Source of the DNA: Rickettsiales bacterium
GTDB taxonomy: Bacteria > Pseudomonadota > Alphaproteobacteria > UBA8366
Direction of reading: 5' to 3'
Assembly: GCA_002724555.1 (NCBI GenBank)
Contig: PBOZ01000039.1
Span: forward strand, 16,229-80,228
Length of the DNA: 64,000 bases
Of the stretch, positions 7,556-27,146 are shown piece after piece. The position numbers and the translations under genes are program-made. How positions within the stretch are numbered: position 1 is the first letter of the stretch; each line of letters opens with the position of its first letter. Below the pieces are notes generated by a model. The model was not told the origin of the DNA, ran no database searches, and saw nothing but the letters and a program-made list of their open reading frames with translations.

Positions 7556-8803
7556 ATGTCTGGAAGAATTGGAAAGGCAGACAACGTCAACGACGAACTC
7601 GGAAGCGACAGCGCGTCAAGGGATGAACGCTGGGCGCTAAGTTTGATTAGCTGCGGCCACTATCTCAGCCATTTCTACGGCCTGGTATTGCCGCCATTAT
7701 TCCCGCTGCTAAAAACAGAATTCGGCATCAGCTATATCGAGCTCGGCCTCGCCATTACGGCATACAGTTTATTAGGTGGTATTCTGCAAGCACCTGTAGG
7801 CTTTCTCGTCGACCGCCTCGGGCCGAGCCGGGTGCTTTTGTCTGGTATGGCGCTCATCGCCGCATCCATTCTGCTTATGGGCTTCGTTTCCTCCTACTGG
7901 ATGCTTCTAATGCTCGCCATATTTGCTGGGCTTGGAAACAGCGTCTTCCACCCAGCGGACTATGCGATTCTGGCCGGCTCGATTGGCGAAAAGCGGCTGG
8001 GGCGGGCATATTCGATGCATACCTTTTCGGGCTTTCTCGGAGGAGCCTGTGCACCTGTCGCGATGCTGGCACTTGCGGCCCAGTGGGATTGGCGAATGGC
8101 CCTGATTATAACCGGCGGTATCGGTCTTATAGTGTTCGCGATAATGGCGATCCGTCGTGATGTCCTCATCGGTGAAGAGAAGGCTGAAACAGGCACAATT
8201 GCCGACGACAAATCTTCTTCTGGACTAGCGTTACTGGCGACGGCGCCAGTTCTATTATTTTTAGTTTTTTTCATCCTTTACGGCATTGCAAGTAGCGGAC
8301 TTATCGCTTTTATCTCAAGTGGACTGATGGAGCTGCACGGCATTGGACTAGAAGCCGCGAATACAGCGCTTACCGCACACCTTTTTGGGGTCGTCGGTGG
8401 CATTCTTCTTACTGGATTGATCGCCGACCGGTATTCCCGGCATATTGTGACCGGCGGTGCCGCTCTAGTCCTAGCAACAATCGCAACGCTGCTGCCAACA
8501 ATCGGTATTTCCTCAGAAATCGGCCTTATAGTTGTTATGACACTCGCCGGTATTGGGCTTGGCGGCGTGCTGCCACCTCGCGACCTGATGCTCAACGCCA
8601 TGATCCCGCGAGGCCAAACCGGAAAGGTTTTCGGCTTTGTTTTTGTCGGCTATTCACTGGGATACAGCGTCGCTCCGCCAGCACTTGGCGCCTATCTCGA
8701 TTTGGGACAGCCGGCAATGGTCTTCATCGGATGCGCAGGATTTGCCGCCTTATCGTTAGTCGCCATCATTACAGCAAATATCATGGCGGAACGGAAATCC
8801 TAG
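7556..8803 (+). CDS. MFS transporter
   Basis: 415 aa with about 12 predicted hydrophobic helices and the MFS loop motif GFLVDRLGPSRVL. Confidence 0.85.
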   Translation: MSGRIGKADNVNDELGSDSASRDERWALSLISCGHYLSHFYGLVLPPLFPLLKTEFGISYIELGLAITAYSLLGGILQAPVGFLVDRLGPSRVLLSGMALIAASILLMGFVSSYWMLLMLAIFAGLGNSVFHPADYAILAGSIGEKRLGRAYSMHTFSGFLGGACAPVAMLALAAQWDWRMALIITGGIGLIVFAIMAIRRDVLIGEEKAETGTIADDKSSSGLALLATAPVLLFLVFFILYGIASSGLIAFISSGLMELHGIGLEAANTALTAHLFGVVGGILLTGLIADRYSRHIVTGGAALVLATIATLLPTIGISSEIGLIVVMTLAGIGLGGVLPPRDLMLNAMIPRGQTGKVFGFVFVGYSLGYSVAPPALGAYLDLGQPAMVFIGCAGFAALSLVAIITANIMAERKS

Positions 8804-9975
8804 GCCCGCATATTCTTCCGAGCTTCGTCGATATCCCAATGCAAGAAGTCGGGACCAAGTTGGTCAAGCGCCGGACAACCAAGCTGCTTCATGTTTGTTT
8901 CGATTTCTGATCTTACGATCTCAACCGCCTTAGAGGCACCAAGCTCGCCACCGGCTATACACCCATAAAGCGTCGGACGGCCCACAAAAACGAATTTAGC
9001 ACCCATGCAAAGTGCAATCATAATGTCAGCGCCGCGACGCACCCCACCGTCTAGCATCAGCGTCATACGATCGCCCACCGCTGCATCAATTGCGGGCAAA
9101 ACATCGAGCGGCGCGGGTGCTCGATCCAGCTGCCGGGCACCATGATTAGATATCATTAACCCGTCGACCCCGACCTCTGCTGCCCGCAAGGCGTCGTCCA
9201 CCCGCATGACGCCCTTAAGAACGAGATTACCAGTCCAAAGTTGGCGAAATTTCTCGATATCCTTCCAAGTAAGTGCCCCAGGGAACTGATTGGAGACGAA
9301 TTCGCCAACCTCCTCCGCATTTGAACCTTCCGGCGCGTATTGCTCCCAGTTCGCAAGCATAGCAATGCCGTTTGTCAGATAATCCTTCAACCACAATGGA
9401 TGTTTAAGAGCGTTAAACTTGCACTCCCAAGTGAGTTTCAGTGGTCGACCAAATCCGTTACGCTTATTACGCTCGCGATTGCCGCTGGCCGGAACATCGA
9501 CCGTAATTACCAAGGTCTTGATGCCCAGATCTTGGGCGCGCTTGACCTGATCTTCAGAGATCGACCGATCTTTTGCAGTGTAGAGTTGATACCAGCCATG
9601 GTCCGGACATTCTCGGGCCATATCTTCCATTCTCGCTGTCGCAGCACCTGACATTATGAAAGGTATATTCGCGTCGCGTGCCGCACGCGCCAACATTAGG
9701 TCGCCTTGATGGCGATAGTTGGATATGCCCCCAGTTGGGGCAATCCCATAGGCGCTTGAATAGGTCTGGCCAAATAATTCAGTATCTTGATTAATCGTCG
9801 TAATATCGACCATGTAGCGCGGCACCAAAGCACGCTGACGAAAGGCGTCTTCATTGCGAACCAAACCGGCTTCATCTTCAGAACCACCTTCAATAAAATC
9901 GTATATGAGCTTCGGCACCCGCTTCTTGGCAAGAATCCGCAGATCATCGAGGTTGATGCAATCTTCGACATTCAT
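8800..9975 (-). CDS. FMN-dependent alpha-hydroxy-acid oxidase/dehydrogenase (glycolate oxidase/L-lactate dehydrogenase family)
   Basis: Family signature ISNHGARQLD and TIM-barrel FMN-binding regions. The second ATG at 9975 has a GGGGAA RBS. The track start is 9993. Confidence 0.88.
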   Translation of the reverse strand: MNVEDCINLDDLRILAKKRVPKLIYDFIEGGSEDEAGLVRNEDAFRQRALVPRYMVDITTINQDTELFGQTYSSAYGIAPTGGISNYRHQGDLMLARAARDANIPFIMSGAATARMEDMARECPDHGWYQLYTAKDRSISEDQVKRAQDLGIKTLVITVDVPASGNRERNKRNGFGRPLKLTWECKFNALKHPLWLKDYLTNGIAMLANWEQYAPEGSNAEEVGEFVSNQFPGALTWKDIEKFRQLWTGNLVLKGVMRVDDALRAAEVGVDGLMISNHGARQLDRAPAPLDVLPAIDAAVGDRMTLMLDGGVRRGADIMIALCMGAKFVFVGRPTLYGCIAGGELGASKAVEIVRSEIETNMKQLGCPALDQLGPDFLHWDIDEARKNMRA

Positions 9976-10125
9976 GATATTTCCCCTGAACATGGCGTAC
10001 GAACTTCGGCCCGGACAGGTTTCAAATTAGCCCAAACGCGAATAAGGGCTAGGGTTTATGCACTGCGCGTTCCTTCTCAAAGTCAGCCAGCTCGCCTACA
10101 TCGTAATTGAAACGATGACCCGAGC

Positions 10126-10986
10126 TCAATACGGAGCTTCCACACCCTCTTCGCTAATGCGCTTATTCTGCCATTCGGTCCCCTTGAAATAGACTTGTCG
10201 CTGCATCTCTTCAGCTTTTTGATGAAAAGCCACAGCCACTGGGTCAAGGTCGCATTGCGGGATCGGCTCGTGTTCAAAATTCCCATACTTGTCTTCACCT
10301 CGCACCATAGCCGCGCTGTCCCAGGAAGCCAAAACCTGGCGTGTTTCCGGTGGGATGTAACGCAAGACGACCCCGATCCGCCGATCGTCACTTAGGTTCG
10401 GGTACGACGCGTGTGCAATTGAGTAGTCAAAGAGCGCTGCTTCACCGGTTTTCAGTTCAATGTTCACCGCTTGGCTCTCATCGACATCCATAATCGTCTG
10501 TCCGCGCGTTAACATATTGTGCTCGGCACGTGTATCGACATGCGGCATCGGCGGCTTTAAATGACTACCCGGCAACATCCGCATGCATCCGCTCTCAATG
10601 GTTGCTGGCGACAGAGCTATCCAGACACTCACCAGGTCTTTTGTATCGAGGCCCCAATAATTGTTATCCTGGTGCCAGGAAACATAACTTGGGCTCTGCG
10701 GTTCTTTTATAAACCAGTGTGTTGTCCAGCAAAGAATATTCGGCCCAATCACATCCTCGACAGCATCGAGGATGTGGGGTGCGCGCACCAGGTCGGCAAG
10801 CCATTTGAACAGTAAGTGGGTTTTAAACCGATACGCCCCTCGCAGGGATCCACCATTCGCAGCCTCAAAATTCTCCAACTGGCAGCGGTAATCGGCTGCC
10901 TCGTCCGCCGTGACGCCGGGGATGGGGAAATGAAATCCAAACCGCTTCAAGTTTCCTATTGTTTCGTCATTCAACGCTTTCGGCAT
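10126..10986 (-). CDS. Phytanoyl-CoA dioxygenase (PhyH) family Fe(II)/2-oxoglutarate oxygenase
   Basis: SWHQDNNYWG (HxD iron ligands) and PhyH-like overall sequence. ATG 10986 has an AAGGAA RBS and lies 11 nt after the upstream stop. The track start at 11061 would overlap the upstream gene. Confidence 0.85.
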   Translation of the reverse strand: MPKALNDETIGNLKRFGFHFPIPGVTADEAADYRCQLENFEAANGGSLRGAYRFKTHLLFKWLADLVRAPHILDAVEDVIGPNILCWTTHWFIKEPQSPSYVSWHQDNNYWGLDTKDLVSVWIALSPATIESGCMRMLPGSHLKPPMPHVDTRAEHNMLTRGQTIMDVDESQAVNIELKTGEAALFDYSIAHASYPNLSDDRRIGVVLRYIPPETRQVLASWDSAAMVRGEDKYGNFEHEPIPQCDLDPVAVAFHQKAEEMQRQVYFKGTEWQNKRISEEGVEAPY

Positions 10987-10996
10987 CGGTTGTTCC

Positions 10997-11515
10997 TTAT
11001 TCCGCCGCGTCCTGTACCAACGTCCCGGTGAGACTTTCCATCGCGTGGCTTTCTGGCTCAATGCCGAACATATTGTTGAAGATGTTCATCCCATGCAACG
11101 TAGCAATGGTAAATCCGATCTCGACAAGCTGCGCGTCGTCAAAAAACTCCCTCATTTTTTCAAACAACGCGTCCGCATTATCGGTCTCATTCTGGGACAT
11201 TGCAGTAGCAAAACGCAAAACTGCCCGTTCTCGCGGTGTAAAAATTGAATGATCAGGATTTTGAACTTCAGCTAACTTCTCTTCTGTCATACCGGCATGC
11301 CGACCCGCGGCATAGCGATAGTTAAGTCAATATCGGCATTCGTTGATGGTTGCGCAGCGAATCCGTATAAGCTCTTTGATGCTGGCATCAACCCGATCAC
11401 TTAACCAGATACGCTCATAAAAGGTGTTTAACCCCTCAAGCAATTCTGGACAATTGCCCCGAACCCTTTGGCTGTTCGGCAGCTCTTCGGATCCAGAAAG
11501 TTTTACATGCGGCAT
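10997..11515 (-). CDS. Carboxymuconolactone decarboxylase/AhpD-like family protein with in-frame UGA at the CxxC position (candidate selenoprotein, CRYU)
   Basis: Track ORFs 11327-11581 and 10997-11290 share one frame. Reading through the TGA at 11327-11329 gives MPHVKLSGSEELP...IRCATINECRY[UGA]LNYRYAAGRHAGMTEEKLAEV... with no other stop. GGAGAGGG lies upstream of ATG 11515. A nonsense pseudogene is the alternative explanation. Confidence 0.6.
11290..11320 (-). promoter_or_regulatory. SECIS-like mRNA stem-loop immediately downstream of the in-frame UGA
   Basis: The mRNA reads UAUCGCUAUGCCG-CGGGU-CGGCAUGCCGGUA. It has 13 paired positions (perfect 6-bp upper stem, one C.C mismatch, two G.U pairs) and a 5-nt G-rich loop. 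It starts 6 nt after the UGA. Confidence 0.45.
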
Positions 11516-11705
11516 TCTTTGTAGCCCTCTCCAACTTGCAAACACACAAATAACCATATGCCATTTTCTTCGAATTCGCACCTTAGATATAGGGCGATTA
11601 AGCTGGACATCCCCTCTTTTTGGTCGTTAACCCTTCCTCACAAATTTAAAGCAGGAATTCTATGCAGAACATGATCGCTATTATTTACCTCAGAGTGACA
11701 CCCTG

Positions 11706-12902
11706 ATGACCGGCCGCTTATGGTTCATGTTCGCTTGTGGTTTCGTCATTGTCCTGATTGGGAACGGATTACGGCAGATATTTGGAGTTTTTCAAATCGA
11801 TGTCACTCAAGAGTTGGCGATAGGTTTTGGCTCGTTTGGCCTCGTTATTGGGATACAGGCGCTAATCCTCGGGATCGCACAACCAGCCTCTGGCCTTCTT
11901 GCTGATAAATACGGGTCCGTGCGGGTCATCGTTGGAGGCGCTCTGATTTATGCGCTAGGACTGTGGTGGGCAAGCCTGAGCACATCGTCTTGGGAGCTGG
12001 CAATTTCACTTGGCGTCATTGTCGGTTTAGGCCTAACCGGACCAACGCAAGTTCTGGTACTCGGCGCAATTGGAAAAGTCGTACCGGATAATCGCCGTTC
12101 CTTCGTATTTGGCTCTATAATTGCCTCAACATCACTCGGCGGTGCACTGCTGATCCCAATCGTTTTTCAACTAATTCAGTCCTTCGATTGGCGAACTGCT
12201 TTTGCCATAGCGGCACTTGTAATAGCGCTTCTTCCTATCATCTCGTTGGGCCTTTACAATAAAAACAAATTAGTTGGTAAGTGCTCCAACCAGTCAATTC
12301 GTGAAGCGATAACAGAGGCCAAATCCCATCCTGGCTTTATTTTTCTCACCCTGGGGTTTTTTGTCTGCGGATTTCATGTGACTTTTATTGGAACGCACCT
12401 CCCAGCCTTTCTCACAGATGGCGGTCTATCGCCCAAGTTTGCTGCCGACGCCTTATCGATAGTGCTCTTTTGCAATGTTATTGGAGCATTATTGTTCGGC
12501 ACTCTCGGCGACTACTTTAGCAAGAAGAACTTGCTGACGTTACTCTACGCCGCCAGAGCCGCCCTCATGTTAGCAATGCTCTTAGCCCCAGTAGACGAGG
12601 TAACAACGATATTCTTCTGCGTCACAATGGGCTTCCTATGGCTTTCAACCGTTCCATTGACCAGTGGTCTAGTTGCGCAAATTTTCGGAACACAATACTT
12701 CTCTATGCTTTTCGGAATTGTTTTCATGAGCCACCAAATAGGCGGGTTTTTTGGTGCATGGTTGGCTGGTTACATATTTGACACAACAGGTTCTTACAAC
12801 TTGATGTGGGCTGCGGCGGCCTGCCTCGGCGTCGTCTCAGCATTACTCCATTGGCCAATCCGTGAACAGCCACTGGAACGGCTGACCGCACAAACTGGTT
12901 AA
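11706..12902 (+). CDS. MFS transporter
   Basis: 398 aa with a multi-helix hydrophobic profile and the loop motif GLLADKYGSVRV. Confidence 0.85.
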   Translation: MTGRLWFMFACGFVIVLIGNGLRQIFGVFQIDVTQELAIGFGSFGLVIGIQALILGIAQPASGLLADKYGSVRVIVGGALIYALGLWWASLSTSSWELAISLGVIVGLGLTGPTQVLVLGAIGKVVPDNRRSFVFGSIIASTSLGGALLIPIVFQLIQSFDWRTAFAIAALVIALLPIISLGLYNKNKLVGKCSNQSIREAITEAKSHPGFIFLTLGFFVCGFHVTFIGTHLPAFLTDGGLSPKFAADALSIVLFCNVIGALLFGTLGDYFSKKNLLTLLYAARAALMLAMLLAPVDEVTTIFFCVTMGFLWLSTVPLTSGLVAQIFGTQYFSMLFGIVFMSHQIGGFFGAWLAGYIFDTTGSYNLMWAAAACLGVVSALLHWPIREQPLERLTAQTG

Positions 12903-12969
12903 CCGAATTGCCAACTGAACCGAATCGACTAATTGCTTAAACAATCAGTTTCAAAATTGATCGATAGAA

Positions 12970-14607
12970 ATGGCGCAGATTGAGAATTACGATTATGTCA
13001 TCGTGGGCGCTGGCTCCGCAGGTTGCACGATCGCAAACCGGCTTAGCGAAGACGAACGGGCACGAGTTCTTTTGCTTGAAGCCGGTGGCTTCGATCACGA
13101 TCCAATAATTCATGTGCCGATCGGCTGGGGACGCATCCTATTTAAGCGGCTCCATGATTGGGGTTATTTCTTTGAACCGGAGCCACATCTCGAAAACCGC
13201 ACGATCGAATGTGCCCGTGGGAAGGTAATGGGCGGGTCTTCCTCGATCAACGCCATGGCTTATGTCCGTTGCCACCCACTTGACTTCGACCGATGGGCGG
13301 GAAATGGCTGCACCGGGTGGTCCTTTGCCGAGATGCTTCCATATTTCAAACGCCAGGAGGACTGGGAGGAAGGTGCTAACGATTACCGAGGAGCGGGCGG
13401 CCCGCTAACCACGACGCAAAACCGATACCCCGACCCTCTGGTCGATGCCTGGATCAATGCGGGCGCCCAAGCCGGCTACGGCTTTACCAATGATTACAAC
13501 GGTGCGAATACGGATGGCTTCTGCATTATGCAGTCAACCGTGCGCCGGGGTCTCAGATGCAGCGCTTCCATGGCCTATCTTCGACCGGCCATGCAACGCC
13601 CAAACCTGACGGTGAGTACAAAATCTTTGGCCGTAGAGATCATTATGGAAGGTAAGCGCGCCATTGGTATCAAATATGCTCATCGAGGCAAACCTTATGA
13701 GGCATACGCGGCGGGTGAAGTCATCCTGTGCGGCGGAGTAATAAATTCACCACATATTCTGATGCTATCCGGAATTGGGTCGGCAGATGAATTGGCGGAG
13801 CACGACATAGACTGTAAAGTCAAACTACCGAATATTGGTAAAAATTTACAAGACCATCTTTCTGTCGGAGTCGAATACGAACGTAAAGAAGACGGGCCCT
13901 TTGTTAACGTCCTCCGATCCGACAAGCTCCTGGCGGCAATGGCGCGGGCCTACATCTTTGGGGATGGATTTGCTACAGCCATGCCAGGACCGGTCATGGC
14001 GTTTTTGAAAAGTGATCCCTCACTTTTGCAGCCGAATATCCAGTTCTTAACGCGTTTCGTGCCGCCCGAATCACAACCTTGGTTTCCAGGCTATAAATCT
14101 CGCCCCAAGGACGCTTTTATGTGCCGCCCAGTGATCCTGCATCCGGAAAGCCGCGGCTATGTGAAACTGAATTCCTCTAACCCGGCGGACCCGATAGCCA
14201 TTCACGGTAACTTTCTCAGCACCCAAACGGACCGTGATACTTTACGAAGCGGATTCGAGATGGTTCGAGACGTTGCGAGCCAGAAACCCCTCGATCCATT
14301 TCGCGGTGTTGAAACCAATCCTGGTCCCGATTGCAGGACTCCCGCGCAAATTGACGCCTTTATCCGTAAAACCGCCTGGACGGTCCATCACCCACTCGGC
14401 ACCTGTAAAATGGGCGCAGAAAATGACGAAACAGCGGTCGTCGATCCGAAGCTCCGGGTGCGAGGCGTCGAAAACCTCCGGGTAGTTGACGCTTCGGTGA
14501 TGCCAGATATGCCAGGCGGAAACATCAACTCACCCGTAATTGCTATAGCCGAACGCGCGGCTGACCTGATCCAGGGTAATCAGCCGTTGGCAGCGGCCAC
14601 CTTCTAA
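12970..14607 (+). CDS. GMC-family FAD oxidoreductase (choline-dehydrogenase-like)
   Basis: N-terminal YDYVIVGAGSAGCTIANRLSED, GMC signature GKVMGGSSSINAMAY, and C-terminal HPLGTCKMG. Confidence 0.9.
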   Translation: MAQIENYDYVIVGAGSAGCTIANRLSEDERARVLLLEAGGFDHDPIIHVPIGWGRILFKRLHDWGYFFEPEPHLENRTIECARGKVMGGSSSINAMAYVRCHPLDFDRWAGNGCTGWSFAEMLPYFKRQEDWEEGANDYRGAGGPLTTTQNRYPDPLVDAWINAGAQAGYGFTNDYNGANTDGFCIMQSTVRRGLRCSASMAYLRPAMQRPNLTVSTKSLAVEIIMEGKRAIGIKYAHRGKPYEAYAAGEVILCGGVINSPHILMLSGIGSADELAEHDIDCKVKLPNIGKNLQDHLSVGVEYERKEDGPFVNVLRSDKLLAAMARAYIFGDGFATAMPGPVMAFLKSDPSLLQPNIQFLTRFVPPESQPWFPGYKSRPKDAFMCRPVILHPESRGYVKLNSSNPADPIAIHGNFLSTQTDRDTLRSGFEMVRDVASQKPLDPFRGVETNPGPDCRTPAQIDAFIRKTAWTVHHPLGTCKMGAENDETAVVDPKLRVRGVENLRVVDASVMPDMPGGNINSPVIAIAERAADLIQGNQPLAAATF

Positions 14608-27071: not shown

Positions 27072-27146
27072 TGGCTGGGGCGGCAGGATTCGAACCTGCG
27101 AATGCCGATACCAAAAACCGGTGCCTTACCACTTGGCCACGCCCCA
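27072..27146 (-). tRNA. tRNA-Gln (anticodon UUG)
   Basis: The reverse complement TGGGGCGTGGCCAAGTGGTAAGGCACCGGTTTTTGGTATCGGCATTCGCAGGTTCGAATCCTGCCGCCCCAGCCA folds by hand into a cloverleaf. The anticodon loop is TTTTGGT, a GGTTCGAATCC T-arm is present, and CCA is encoded. Confidence 0.93.

What the first reader, a model, noticed from the sequence alone, without database searches (positions are those of the whole stretch)
11290..11320. Strong stem-loop 6 nt downstream of the UGA with a G-rich apical loop (bacterial SECIS-like)
The mRNA sense after the UGA is CUUAAC then UAUCGCU-AUGCCG-CGGGU-CGGCAU-GCCGGUA. The upper stem AUGCCG/CGGCAU is a perfect 6-bp helix. The lower stem adds U.G, a C.C mismatch, G-C, C-G, U.G, A-U and U-A. 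The apical loop starts 19 nt after the UGA and contains GGU. As I recall, bacterial SECIS elements are hairpins placed directly 3' of the UGA inside the coding sequence, with loop G/U nucleotides contacting SelB; the E. coli fdhF loop is GGUC. Such a structure in a coding region, at exactly this spacing, is unlikely by chance. It is the main argument against a simple nonsense mutation.
Basis: partly seen in the sequence, partly recalled or inferred. Interest (0 to 1): 0.65.

Follow-up and report, generated by a model that had tools for sequence, protein, structure and literature searches.

The report
Selenocysteine insertion hairpin, AhpD-like gene
The hairpin is real and is almost certainly the RNA signal that makes the ribosome read the in-frame UGA as selenocysteine in a small AhpD/CMD-family redox protein, a kind of marine bacterial selenoprotein known since 2005 that gene callers routinely cut in two.

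Summary
On the minus strand, a 31-nt hairpin (11320..11290) starts 6 nt after an in-frame TGA (11329..11327). It has a 5-bp lower stem, a C·C mismatch, a 7-bp upper stem and a CGGGU loop that starts 19 nt after the UGA.

Its folding energy alone is not convincing:
- z = -1.06 against dinucleotide shuffles.
- Only 4-7% of codon-preserving resamples fold as well.

The comparative evidence is decisive:
- All 31 homologous loci (66-96% aa identity) and three distant relatives carry TGA at the same codon, in a C-x-x-U motif.
- The hairpin pairs in 98.8% of cells, against 27-50% when the partners are slid.
- Three base pairs covary perfectly, and some of these changes alter the peptide (RH to QR, Y to F).
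- Synonymous variation falls over the hairpin codons.
- Both halves of the gene show the same coding signature.
- The Pfam CMD domain spans the UGA.
- The UGA aligns with the second Cys of CxxC in Cys homologs, which lack the hairpin.
- All four criteria of the published bacterial SECIS consensus are met in 32 of 32 sequences.

Verdict: a bacterial SECIS element in an AhpD-like/CMD CxxU selenoprotein gene. This is a new member of a known kind. SelB binding and the Sec machinery could not be tested here.

The parts
10997..11515 (-). Full selenoprotein gene: 172 codons plus TAA. It belongs to the CMD/AhpD family, with Sec at codon 63. Gene callers split it into a 62-aa piece and a 97-aa piece.
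   Evidence: Translation. Pfam PF02627 scores 50.7 bits (cut-off 23) over residues 23-104, so the domain spans the UGA. Homologs align over residues 1-172 across the stop. Third-position diversity is 0.53 upstream and 0.54 downstream of the UGA. Public gene calls are 62 aa + 97 aa.
11327..11329 (-). In-frame UGA, read as selenocysteine (U63).
   Evidence: TGA is at this codon in 31/31 homologous loci and in L037-L039. In an alignment with a neutral X at this position, it aligns with the second Cys of CxxC in seven Cys homologs.
11327..11338 (-). Redox motif C-R-Y-U (CxxU), encoded by TGC CGA TAT TGA.
   Evidence: The first Cys is invariant in homologs. CxxU is the published motif of AhpD-like and CMD selenoproteins (PMC1088965, PMC2398784).
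11321..11326 (-). 6-nt spacer CUUAAC between the UGA and the base of the hairpin.
11290..11320 (-). SECIS hairpin. Lower stem 11320-11316 pairs with 11294-11290. C·C mismatch at 11315/11295. Upper stem 11314-11308 pairs with 11302-11296. Loop CGGGU at 11307-11303.
   Evidence: MFE structure, -13.1 kcal/mol. 98.8% of cells are paired across 20 distinct sequences, with three fully covarying pairs. Synonymous codon entropy dips to 0.49 over codons 66-75. The covariance model gives a single significant hit in the window, 85 bits.
11303..11307 (-). Apical loop CGGGU. GGG is invariant and the last base is U or C. It starts 19 nt after the UGA. It is the presumed SelB contact.
   Evidence: Loop is CGGG[U/C] in 32/32 sequences, and the Ala70 codon GCG is invariant in 24/24. 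SelB contact is inferred from the E. coli fdhF paradigm and was not tested.
11288..11290 (-). Internal AUG (Met76) at the 3' foot of the hairpin. Gene callers mistake it for the start of a 97-aa ORF.
   Evidence: It is replaced by AUU (Ile) in L003 and L017 and by GUG in L007, so it is not a conserved start codon.
10126..10986 (-). Context: a PhyH-family dioxygenase gene that starts 10 nt after the selenoprotein stop codon. It is a probable operon partner.
   Evidence: Pfam PF05721 on the equivalent gene. It lies directly downstream in 12 loci of the clade that is at least 73% identical. A PhyH gene lies directly upstream in the L046/L047 clade.

Best explanation
The hairpin is a bacterial selenocysteine insertion sequence (bSECIS). 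It lies inside the coding region of a 172-codon CMD/AhpD-family gene (10997..11515, minus strand).

Proposed mechanism, inferred from the E. coli fdhF paradigm: when the ribosome reaches UGA63, the hairpin 6 nt downstream presents its G-rich apical loop to the elongation factor SelB carrying Sec-tRNA(Sec). SelB delivers selenocysteine instead of allowing termination. The product is a full-length protein with a C-R-Y-U (CxxU) redox centre in place of the family's CxxC.

Shown here:
- The hairpin and its spacing.
- Conservation of the UGA.
- Base-pair covariation independent of the peptide.
- Suppressed synonymous change over the hairpin.
- A coding signature on both sides of the UGA.
- The Sec/Cys correspondence.
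- Agreement with the published bSECIS consensus.

Inferred only:
- SelB binding.
- Actual Sec insertion.
- The presence of selA/selB/selC/selD in this genome.
- The protein's thiol/selenol oxidoreductase role.
For: (1) Anatomy as described; -13.1 kcal/mol.

(2) TGA is at the same codon in 31/31 homologous loci from Alpha- and Gammaproteobacteria MAGs and marine metagenomes, at 66-96% aa identity. It is also there in three distant relatives whose peptide after the UGA differs.

(3) All 23 word-search homologs are C-terminal fragments, 19 of them exactly 97 aa. In an exhaustive HMMER scan of 1.84 billion representatives, every listed hit at or above 52% identity is a fragment of 73-124 aa.

(4) Pairing: 98.8% of cells are paired, against 27-50% for slid partners. 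0 of 500 shuffles reach the observed pairing or covariation score. Three pairs switch cleanly: UA/AU 11:9, UA/CG 14:6 and CG/UA 16:4, with no broken intermediates.

(5) The covarying positions link synonymous sites to non-synonymous ones. Tyr68 position 3 pairs with position 2 of codon 73 (His/Arg/Cys). Ala69 position 3 pairs with position 2 of Arg/Gln72. Position 2 of Tyr/Phe66 pairs with Gly75 position 3. RNA pairing is therefore what is conserved, not the peptide.

(6) Synonymous codon entropy drops from about 1.3 to 0.49 over codons 66-75. Ala70 is GCG in 24/24 and Arg72 is CGG in 18/18.

(7) Diversity by codon position is 0.22/0.14/0.53 upstream and 0.20/0.16/0.54 downstream of the UGA. 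The Pfam CMD domain spans the UGA.

(8) The UGA aligns with the second Cys of CxxC in seven Cys homologs and in the solved structure 7xw1.

(9) All four bSECIS consensus criteria are met in 32/32 sequences: loop 3-9 nt and upper stem 4-16 bp; G in the first two loop positions; 16-37 nt spacing; MFE at or below -7.5 kcal/mol (PMC13188914).

(10) The covariance model hits the window once (85 bits) and the distant Sec loci in register (26-42 bits). It finds nothing significant in the Cys-homolog loci.

(11) TGA ends 7 of 34 long ORFs in the window, so there is no global reassignment of the codon.

(12) AhpD-like and CMD CxxU selenoproteins with such hairpins are abundant in marine metagenomes (PMC1088965, PMC2398784).
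Against: - The single-sequence folding energy is unremarkable.
- No Rfam family matches, though I do not know that Rfam holds a general model for in-frame bacterial SECIS elements.
- No tRNA-Sec was found in the 64-kb window or in 20 related loci. A crude motif scan found no sel genes. The Sec-decoding trait of this organism is therefore unverified.
- No close Cys ortholog exists for a like-for-like test that the hairpin is absent.
- The loop CGGGU does not fit the most common sub-pattern, in which N1 and N2 pair.
- The compensatory changes may represent only about three or four independent events.
- The protein scores below the cut-off of every NCBIfam selenoprotein equivalog.
Confidence: 0.93

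Rival explanations
1. The UGA is a true stop. The locus encodes two separate small proteins (62 aa and 97 aa). The hairpin is then a coincidental or regulatory structure, for example one that masks or couples translation from the internal AUG at its 3' foot.
For: Every public gene call splits the locus this way. The AUG of Met76 sits exactly at the 3' end of the stem. Single-sequence energy is not significant.
Against: - The Pfam CMD domain and the CxxC-equivalent active site span the UGA.
- The 12 codons between the UGA and the AUG are conserved as protein and would be untranslated.
- The AUG is AUU in L003 and L017.
- There is no room for a ribosome-binding site outside the hairpin.
- A stop codon conserved specifically as TGA, never TAA or TAG, in 34 sequences is the signature of recoding.
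Confidence: 0.03
2. The UGA is read through, but not as selenocysteine. The hairpin would stimulate near-cognate decoding (Trp or Cys) or general stop-codon read-through.
For: The Sec machinery was not found in the sequence available. Downstream hairpins can stimulate read-through in other systems (own knowledge).
Against: - The position corresponds to a catalytic Cys of CxxC, which is the classic Sec/Cys pair.
- The hairpin meets the bSECIS-specific criteria, including an invariant loop GGG at the canonical distance.
- The same protein family is a documented selenoprotein family in marine bacteria (PMC1088965, PMC2398784).
- If Cys were inserted, a plain TGC/TGT would be expected to appear somewhere among 34 sequences.
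Confidence: 0.03
3. Pseudogene or sequencing/assembly error: a nonsense mutation in a Cys codon (TGC/TGT to TGA), with the hairpin merely a by-product of the encoded peptide.
For: TGA is one substitution away from a Cys codon. The peptide after the UGA is highly conserved.
Against: - The TGA recurs in 34 independent assemblies spanning 39-96% identity.
- Both halves are under purifying selection in frame.
- Covariation changes the peptide while keeping the pairs.
Confidence: 0.01

Closest known systems
Bacterial SECIS consensus model (Zhang & Gladyshev bSECISearch model, as summarised in PMC13188914 Fig. 2A)
   Same: A hairpin inside the ORF immediately 3' of the Sec-UGA. It has a 5-nt apical loop, a 6-7 bp upper stem, G at loop position 2 followed by G, 19-nt spacing and an MFE of -13.1 kcal/mol. 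All four criteria are met in 32/32 family members.
   Different: The loop CGGG[U/C] does not fit the commonest sub-pattern, in which the flanking loop bases N1 and N2 pair. The consensus is a loose descriptor, not a homology family. There is no Rfam hit.
E. coli fdhF SECIS, the experimentally defined paradigm (own knowledge of the Böck laboratory work)
   Same: A stem-loop directly after the UGA. G/U loop nucleotides lie about 20-24 nt from the UGA, where SelB binds. In fdhF the loop is GGUC, with G23 and U24 counted from the U of the UGA. Here G24-G26 and U27 occupy nearly the same positions.
   Different: There is no sequence similarity. There is no bulged U in the upper stem; instead a C·C mismatch separates the two helices. 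The loop has 5 nt rather than 4. SelB binding was not tested here.
AhpD-like / CMD domain-containing CxxU selenoproteins of marine metagenomes (Sargasso Sea 2005, PMC1088965; GOS 2008 'AhpD-like 1' COG2128 and 'AhpD-like 2' pfam02627, PMC2398784)
   Same: PF02627 domain, a CxxU motif with Sec at the second Cys position, a marine proteobacterial origin and a SECIS-like hairpin with loop G downstream of the TGA.
   Different: This subfamily scores below the cut-off of every NCBIfam selenoprotein model: NF053654 67 vs 310, TIGR01926 35.5 vs 81.8, NF041047 33.6 vs 110, NF041238 29.7 vs 175. It lacks the His four residues after the second Cys that AhpD has (Arg67 here). No Cys form above about 40% identity was found. 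I could not check whether these exact sequences are among the published GOS sets.
Solved CMD-family proteins 7xw1_A, 2ijc_A, PA0269 (2o4d_A), Atu0492 (2gmy_A)
   Same: Sequence homology at E = 5e-14 to 2e-10 over residues 42/43-144/155. Their 'INGCAYCVNMH' aligns with 'INECRYU LNYR'.
   Different: They carry CxxC, not CxxU, and their genes need no recoding element.

Membership tests
Bacterial SECIS element (consensus model, PMC13188914 Fig. 2A) | Stem-loop located immediately downstream of an in-frame UGA inside the coding region | tested here: met
   The hairpin starts 6 nt after the TGA at 11329..11327, within the 172-codon ORF.
Bacterial SECIS element (consensus model, PMC13188914 Fig. 2A) | Apical loop of 3-9 nt and upper stem of 4-16 bp | tested here: met
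   The loop is 5 nt and the upper stem 6-7 bp in 32/32 sequences.
Bacterial SECIS element (consensus model, PMC13188914 Fig. 2A) | At least one G in the first two loop positions, usually followed by G or U | tested here: met
   The loop is CGGG[U/C]. G is at position 2 and followed by G. GGG is invariant in 32/32.
Bacterial SECIS element (consensus model, PMC13188914 Fig. 2A) | 16-37 nt between the UGA and the apical loop | tested here: met
   19 nt in 32/32 sequences.
Bacterial SECIS element (consensus model, PMC13188914 Fig. 2A) | MFE at or below -7.5 kcal/mol | tested here: met
   -13.1 kcal/mol in the window; the family ranges from -11.7 to -14.2. The distant relative L037 is weaker, at -6.3 for its 54-nt fold.
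Bacterial SECIS element (functional definition) | Structure conserved by selection on the RNA (compensatory changes), not only through the peptide | tested here: met
   98.8% of cells are paired, against 27-50% when slid. Three pairs covary fully. 0 of 500 shuffles reach the covariation score. Some changes alter amino acids. Synonymous entropy dips over the hairpin.
Bacterial SECIS element (functional definition) | Absent from Cys-encoding homologs | tested here: inconclusive
   The covariance model finds nothing significant in the three Cys-homolog loci, and no comparable hairpin folds there. These homologs are at most 40% identical, however, and no close Cys ortholog exists.
Bacterial SECIS element (functional definition) | Bound by SelB·GTP·Sec-tRNA(Sec) and required for Sec insertion at the UGA | not testable with these tools
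   This needs biochemistry or a reporter assay.
Bacterial SECIS element (functional definition) | Host genome encodes selA, selB, selC (tRNA-Sec) and selD | not testable with these tools
   Only 64 kb of the genome is available. It holds no tRNA-Sec, and a crude motif scan gave no SelB or SelD hits. None was found in 20 related loci. Absence from such a small sample is uninformative.
AhpD-like / CMD CxxU selenoprotein | CMD/AhpD domain (PF02627, TIGR00778) above the curated threshold | tested here: met
   PF02627 scores 50.7 bits against 23, over residues 23-104. TIGR00778 scores 31.8 against 27.8.
AhpD-like / CMD CxxU selenoprotein | CxxU motif, with U aligned to the second Cys of CxxC in Cys homologs | tested here: met
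   The motif is C60-R-Y-U63. With a neutral X at position 63, it falls in the column of the second Cys in 7/7 Cys homologs. The same holds for 7xw1.
AhpD-like / CMD CxxU selenoprotein | In-frame TGA conserved among orthologs, with coding selection on both sides | tested here: met
   TGA is present in 31/31 loci and in 3 distant relatives. Codon-position diversity has the same pattern on both sides of the UGA.
Specific NCBIfam selenoprotein equivalogs (NF053654 YciW-related, NF041047 GSU3128, NF041238 AhpD_rel_CFYUT, TIGR01926 peroxid_rel) | Score at or above the curated whole-protein cut-off | tested here: not met
   67 vs 310; 33.6 vs 110; 29.7 vs 175; 35.5 vs 81.8. It is related to these families but is a member of none.
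Rfam RNA families | Match to any curated covariance model | tested here: not met
   There was no match up to E = 10 in 10900..11700 on either strand.

The most novel reading that the evidence does not exclude
This could be a distinct CMD subfamily that exists only in Sec form: no Cys form was found above about 40% identity among 1.84 billion representatives. It is not covered by any curated selenoprotein model and is truncated in every public annotation examined. It recurs next to PhyH-type dioxygenase genes within clusters of oxidoreductase, CoA-transferase and transporter genes. That would suggest a selenium-dependent accessory redox role in a specific oxidative pathway, rather than generic peroxide defence.
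Probability: 0.25. Interest if true: 0.4.

Novelty: new member of a known kind. Interest (0 to 1): 0.2.

Why it matters
The practical value is correct annotation. The gene is one 172-residue selenoprotein. It is not two hypothetical proteins of 62 and 97 aa, which is how every public record examined splits it.

The locus also gives a clean, well-populated example of a bSECIS whose base pairs covary against the amino-acid sequence. Such an example is useful for training or benchmarking selenoprotein predictors. The covariance model built here recovers relatives at about 39-55% protein identity in register.

It does not change what is known about Sec decoding. AhpD-like and CMD CxxU selenoproteins were described in marine metagenomes in 2005 and 2008.

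Tried and rejected
- **Rfam scan of 10900..11700 at E up to 10:** no hit.
- **Energy against dinucleotide shuffles:** not significant in either the 40-nt or the 66-nt context. I dropped single-sequence stability as an argument.
- **Codon-preserving resampling:** only marginal, 3.9-6.6%.
- **Search for close Cys orthologs:** the word-based search returned only fragments. The exhaustive HMMER scan gave Cys forms only at 40% identity or less.
- **Full-length C-substituted protein for the representatives search:** The native C-terminal ORF was used instead.
- **Sec machinery:** ARAGORN found only tRNA-Gln in the window and nothing in 20 loci. Regex motifs for SelB, SelD and SelA gave no credible hit.
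- **Other selenoprotein genes in the window:** a scan for other in-frame-TGA split ORFs produced no convincing candidate (the candidates were inspected only by context).
- **PhyH synteny:** my first check used an off-by-one frame. It was redone correctly.
- **Global UGA reassignment:** rejected, because TGA terminates 7 of 34 long ORFs.

Full report
**1. Observation**

Read on the minus strand, the window contains ...GAA TGC CGA TAT TGA CTT AAC TAT CGC TAT GCC GCG GGT CGG CAT GCC GGT ATG....

- The TGA occupies 11329..11327.
- After a 6-nt spacer comes a 31-nt hairpin at 11320..11290.
- The lower stem is UAUCG/CGGUA.
- A C·C mismatch follows.
- The upper stem is UAUGCCG/CGGCAUG, which is six Watson-Crick pairs plus a U·G.
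- The loop is CGGGU and begins 19 nt after the UGA.

RNAfold gives this structure as the MFE of the 40 nt from the UGA, at -13.1 kcal/mol. That value is not unusual for the composition: z = -1.06, and 29 of 200 dinucleotide shuffles fold as well. In a 66-nt context z is +0.27.

I kept the peptide LNYRYAAGRHAGM and resampled synonymous codons. With uniform sampling, 3.9% of sequences fold as well; with the window's own codon usage, 6.6% do. The hairpin is therefore real, but the single sequence does not show it to be more than chance.

**2. The gene**

The hairpin lies inside one reading frame, 11515..10997 (minus strand), of 172 codons ending in TAA, interrupted only by this TGA.

With Cys substituted for the stop, the protein matches Pfam PF02627 (carboxymuconolactone decarboxylase/AhpD family). 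The score is 50.7 bits against a cut-off of 23, over residues 23-104, so the domain spans the TGA. It also passes TIGR00778, the AhpD core domain.

It is most similar to several NCBIfam '(seleno)protein' models but falls below all their cut-offs: NF053654 YciW-related at 67 against 310, and TIGR01926, NF041047 and NF041238 likewise.

The TGA sits in the motif C60-R-Y-U63. The closest solved structures are CMD-family proteins (7xw1, 2ijc, PA0269, Atu0492; E down to 5e-14). Their 'CAYC' aligns with 'CRYU'.

**3. Homologs**

The word-based protein search returned 23 homologs. All are C-terminal fragments of 94-109 aa, and 19 of them are exactly 97 aa. Most start at the Met that follows the hairpin. 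One (P0004) starts directly after the stop.

Scans of species-representative genomes and of metagenomes gave 31 loci that encode the protein. They come from Rhodospirillaceae, other Alphaproteobacteria and Gammaproteobacteria MAGs, and from Tara and other marine metagenomes. Protein identity is 66-96%.

- In every one the match runs across an in-frame stop at the same codon, and that stop is always TGA.
- Nucleotide diversity by codon position is 0.22/0.14/0.53 upstream and 0.20/0.16/0.54 downstream of the TGA. Both halves are therefore under the same purifying selection in the same frame.
- TGA is an ordinary terminator for 7 of 34 long ORFs in the window, so the codon is not reassigned genome-wide.

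**4. The hairpin is conserved as RNA**

On 20 distinct sequences:

- The 12 pairs are formed in 98.8% of cells, against 27-50% when the 3' partners are slid by 1-3 columns.
- None of 500 column shuffles reaches the observed pairing or covariation score.
- RNAalifold predicts the same structure independently.

Three pairs switch cleanly with no broken intermediates:

| Alignment columns | Pair types (counts) |
|---|---|
| 14/42 | U-A 11, A-U 9 |
| 21/35 | U-A 14, C-G 6 |
| 24/32 | C-G 16, U-A 4 |

Others vary through wobble pairs (G-C/G·U, U·G/C-G).

These covariations couple synonymous sites to non-synonymous ones:

- The third base of Tyr68 pairs with the second base of codon 73, which is His, Arg, Tyr or Cys.
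- The third base of Ala69 pairs with the second base of codon 72, which is Arg or Gln.
- The second base of codon 66 (Tyr or Phe) pairs with the third base of Gly75.

The peptide changes (RH to QR, RR, RY or RC; Y to F) while the helix is kept.

Synonymous codon entropy is consistent with this. It falls from about 1.3 bits across the gene to 0.49 over codons 66-75. Ala70 is GCG in 24/24 sequences and Arg72 is CGG in 18/18, whereas Ala55 and Arg51 use four codons each. The loop is CGGG[U/C] in all 32 sequences.

**5. Distant relatives and Cys forms**

I ran an exhaustive HMMER scan with the native C-terminal ORF against 1.84 billion cluster representatives. Every listed hit at or above 52% identity is a fragment of 73-124 aa. 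Full-length proteins appear only at 40% identity or less.

Those full-length proteins carry CxxC: CPSC, CVYC, CRFC, CPFC, CEFC and CPWC. With a neutral X at position 63, the UGA aligns with their second Cys. This is the classical Sec/Cys pair.

Three more distant fragment-type relatives were fetched as DNA (L037, L038, L039). Each again has an upstream ORF abutting the called gene through an in-frame TGA, in C-H-Y-U or C-T-H-U. Each has a different peptide after it (MNYRYAVARQEG, MTVRNAGARQAG, VLSRVAEAQQQG). Each also has a hairpin with a G-containing loop at the same distance, at -6.3, -21.3 and -16.9 kcal/mol.

A covariance model built from the 20-sequence alignment gave these results:

- One significant hit in the 64-kb window (85 bits), at the expected site.
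- Hits on L037-L039 in register with the TGA (26-42 bits; E from 1e-7 to 1e-3).
- Nothing significant in the three Cys-homolog loci.

Folding the equivalent regions of the Cys genes gives unrelated structures. Because no close Cys ortholog exists, this 'absent from Cys forms' test is only a long-range one.

**6. Comparison with the known element**

A 2026 review summarises the bacterial SECIS consensus as follows (PMC13188914, Fig. 2 legend):

- An apical loop of 3-9 nt and an upper stem of 4-16 bp.
- G in one of the first two loop positions, usually followed by G or U.
- 16-37 nt between the UGA and the loop.
- MFE at or below -7.5 kcal/mol.

All four criteria are met in the window and in all 31 homologs: loop 5 nt, upper stem 6-7 bp, loop CGGG[U/C], spacing 19 nt, MFE from -11.7 to -14.2 kcal/mol.

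From my own knowledge of the E. coli fdhF element, the SelB-contacting G23 and U24 lie at nearly the same distance from the UGA as G24-G26 and U27 here. There is no sequence similarity, and a C·C mismatch replaces the bulged U. Rfam has no match.

**7. What is known about the protein family**

AhpD-like (COG2128) and CMD-domain (pfam02627) proteins with a CxxU motif were reported as new selenoprotein families in the Sargasso Sea metagenome. SECIS-like hairpins carrying a loop G were reported with them (PMC1088965).

They are among the most abundant selenoproteins in the Global Ocean Sampling data: 'AhpD-like 1' with 299 genes and 'AhpD-like 2' (pfam02627, CxxU) with 70 genes (PMC2398784). They are listed in the current catalogue (PMC13188914).

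The present gene is therefore a further member of a known kind. Two points are mildly notable. It falls below the cut-off of every curated selenoprotein model. It is also split into 62-aa and 97-aa 'hypothetical proteins' in all the public gene calls I saw.

**8. Mechanism and limits**

The best-supported mechanism is SelB-dependent recoding of UGA63 as selenocysteine, directed by this hairpin. The product would be a CxxU thiol/selenol oxidoreductase of the AhpD/CMD fold.

The sequence-level signatures are shown. The following are inferred:

- SelB binding.
- Selenium incorporation.
- The presence of selA/B/C/D in this organism.

The window holds only a tRNA-Gln. Crude motif scans found no sel genes. 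The related loci hold no tRNA-Sec. In a sample of this size that says nothing either way.

The rivals are each given a few percent or less:

- Two separate small genes, with a regulatory hairpin.
- Non-Sec read-through.
- A pseudogene.

The arguments against them are the domain spanning the stop, the exclusive use of TGA in 34 sequences, the loss of the internal AUG in L003 and L017, and the Sec/Cys correspondence.

**9. Context**

A PhyH-family dioxygenase gene starts 10 nt after the selenoprotein's stop codon (10986..10126). It holds that position in all 12 loci of the clade that is at least 73% identical. In another clade a PhyH gene lies directly upstream. In the gammaproteobacterial MAG the neighbour is an FAD monooxygenase.

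The surrounding genes encode GMC oxidoreductase, MFS transporters, FMN-dependent dehydrogenase, CoA-transferase, enoyl-CoA hydratase and luciferase-like monooxygenase. This context hints at an accessory redox role in oxidative catabolism, but that is speculation.

Noticed in passing
window 10126-10986 (-); L001-L003, L012-L020; L046/L047 4886-5707: A PhyH (phytanoyl-CoA dioxygenase family) gene lies 10 nt downstream of the selenoprotein gene in the window and in 12 related loci. In a more diverged clade a PhyH gene lies directly upstream instead. The link between the CMD selenoprotein and PhyH recurs, but its function is unknown.
   Followed up: partly
window 11288-11290 (-); L003, L017, L007: The AUG that gene callers use as the start of the 97-aa 'protein' is the last base of the SECIS stem plus two more bases. 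It is AUU in L003 and L017 and GUG in L007, so it is an ordinary internal Met codon rather than a conserved start.
   Followed up: yes
public protein databases (P0001-P0031); L042-L048: Every public gene call for this family is truncated, into a 62-aa N-terminal ORF plus a C-terminal ORF of 97 aa (106 aa in the gammaproteobacterial MAG). NCBI names them 'hypothetical protein'. No full-length or Sec-annotated entry was returned by either protein search.
   Followed up: partly
L037 1312-1818; L038 2-349; L039 1327-1827: More distant CMD relatives (39-55% identity over the C-terminal part) also have an in-frame TGA in CxxU, with a hairpin in register but different downstream peptides. The Sec form therefore extends well beyond the immediate family. 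The L037 hairpin is weak (-6.3 kcal/mol).
   Followed up: partly
gene codons 141-150 (window about 11066-11095, -): There is a second, shallower dip in synonymous codon entropy (0.76) over TLHGMNIFNN. It is probably an artefact of the low-degeneracy residues there (M, N, F, H). I did not normalise for degeneracy.
   Followed up: no
window 27072-27146 (-): tRNA-Gln (UUG) is the only tRNA in the 64-kb window. There is no tRNA-Sec, and motif scanning found no recognisable selA, selB or selD.
   Followed up: partly
window 7556-14607 and L042: The neighbourhood is rich in oxidoreductase and transporter genes: two MFS transporters, an FMN-dependent alpha-hydroxy-acid dehydrogenase, a GMC oxidoreductase, a Rieske oxygenase, a GST and a glyoxalase. 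Similar catabolic sets (CoA-transferase III, enoyl-CoA hydratase, luciferase-like monooxygenase) surround the gene in other clades.
   Followed up: no
PDB hits 6ohi_A / 6ohj_A: The marine debrominase Bmp8 (CMD fold) is a weak sequence hit (E = 3.8e-4). This is a reminder that CMD-fold CxxC proteins can carry out reductive dehalogenation as well as peroxide chemistry.
   Followed up: no
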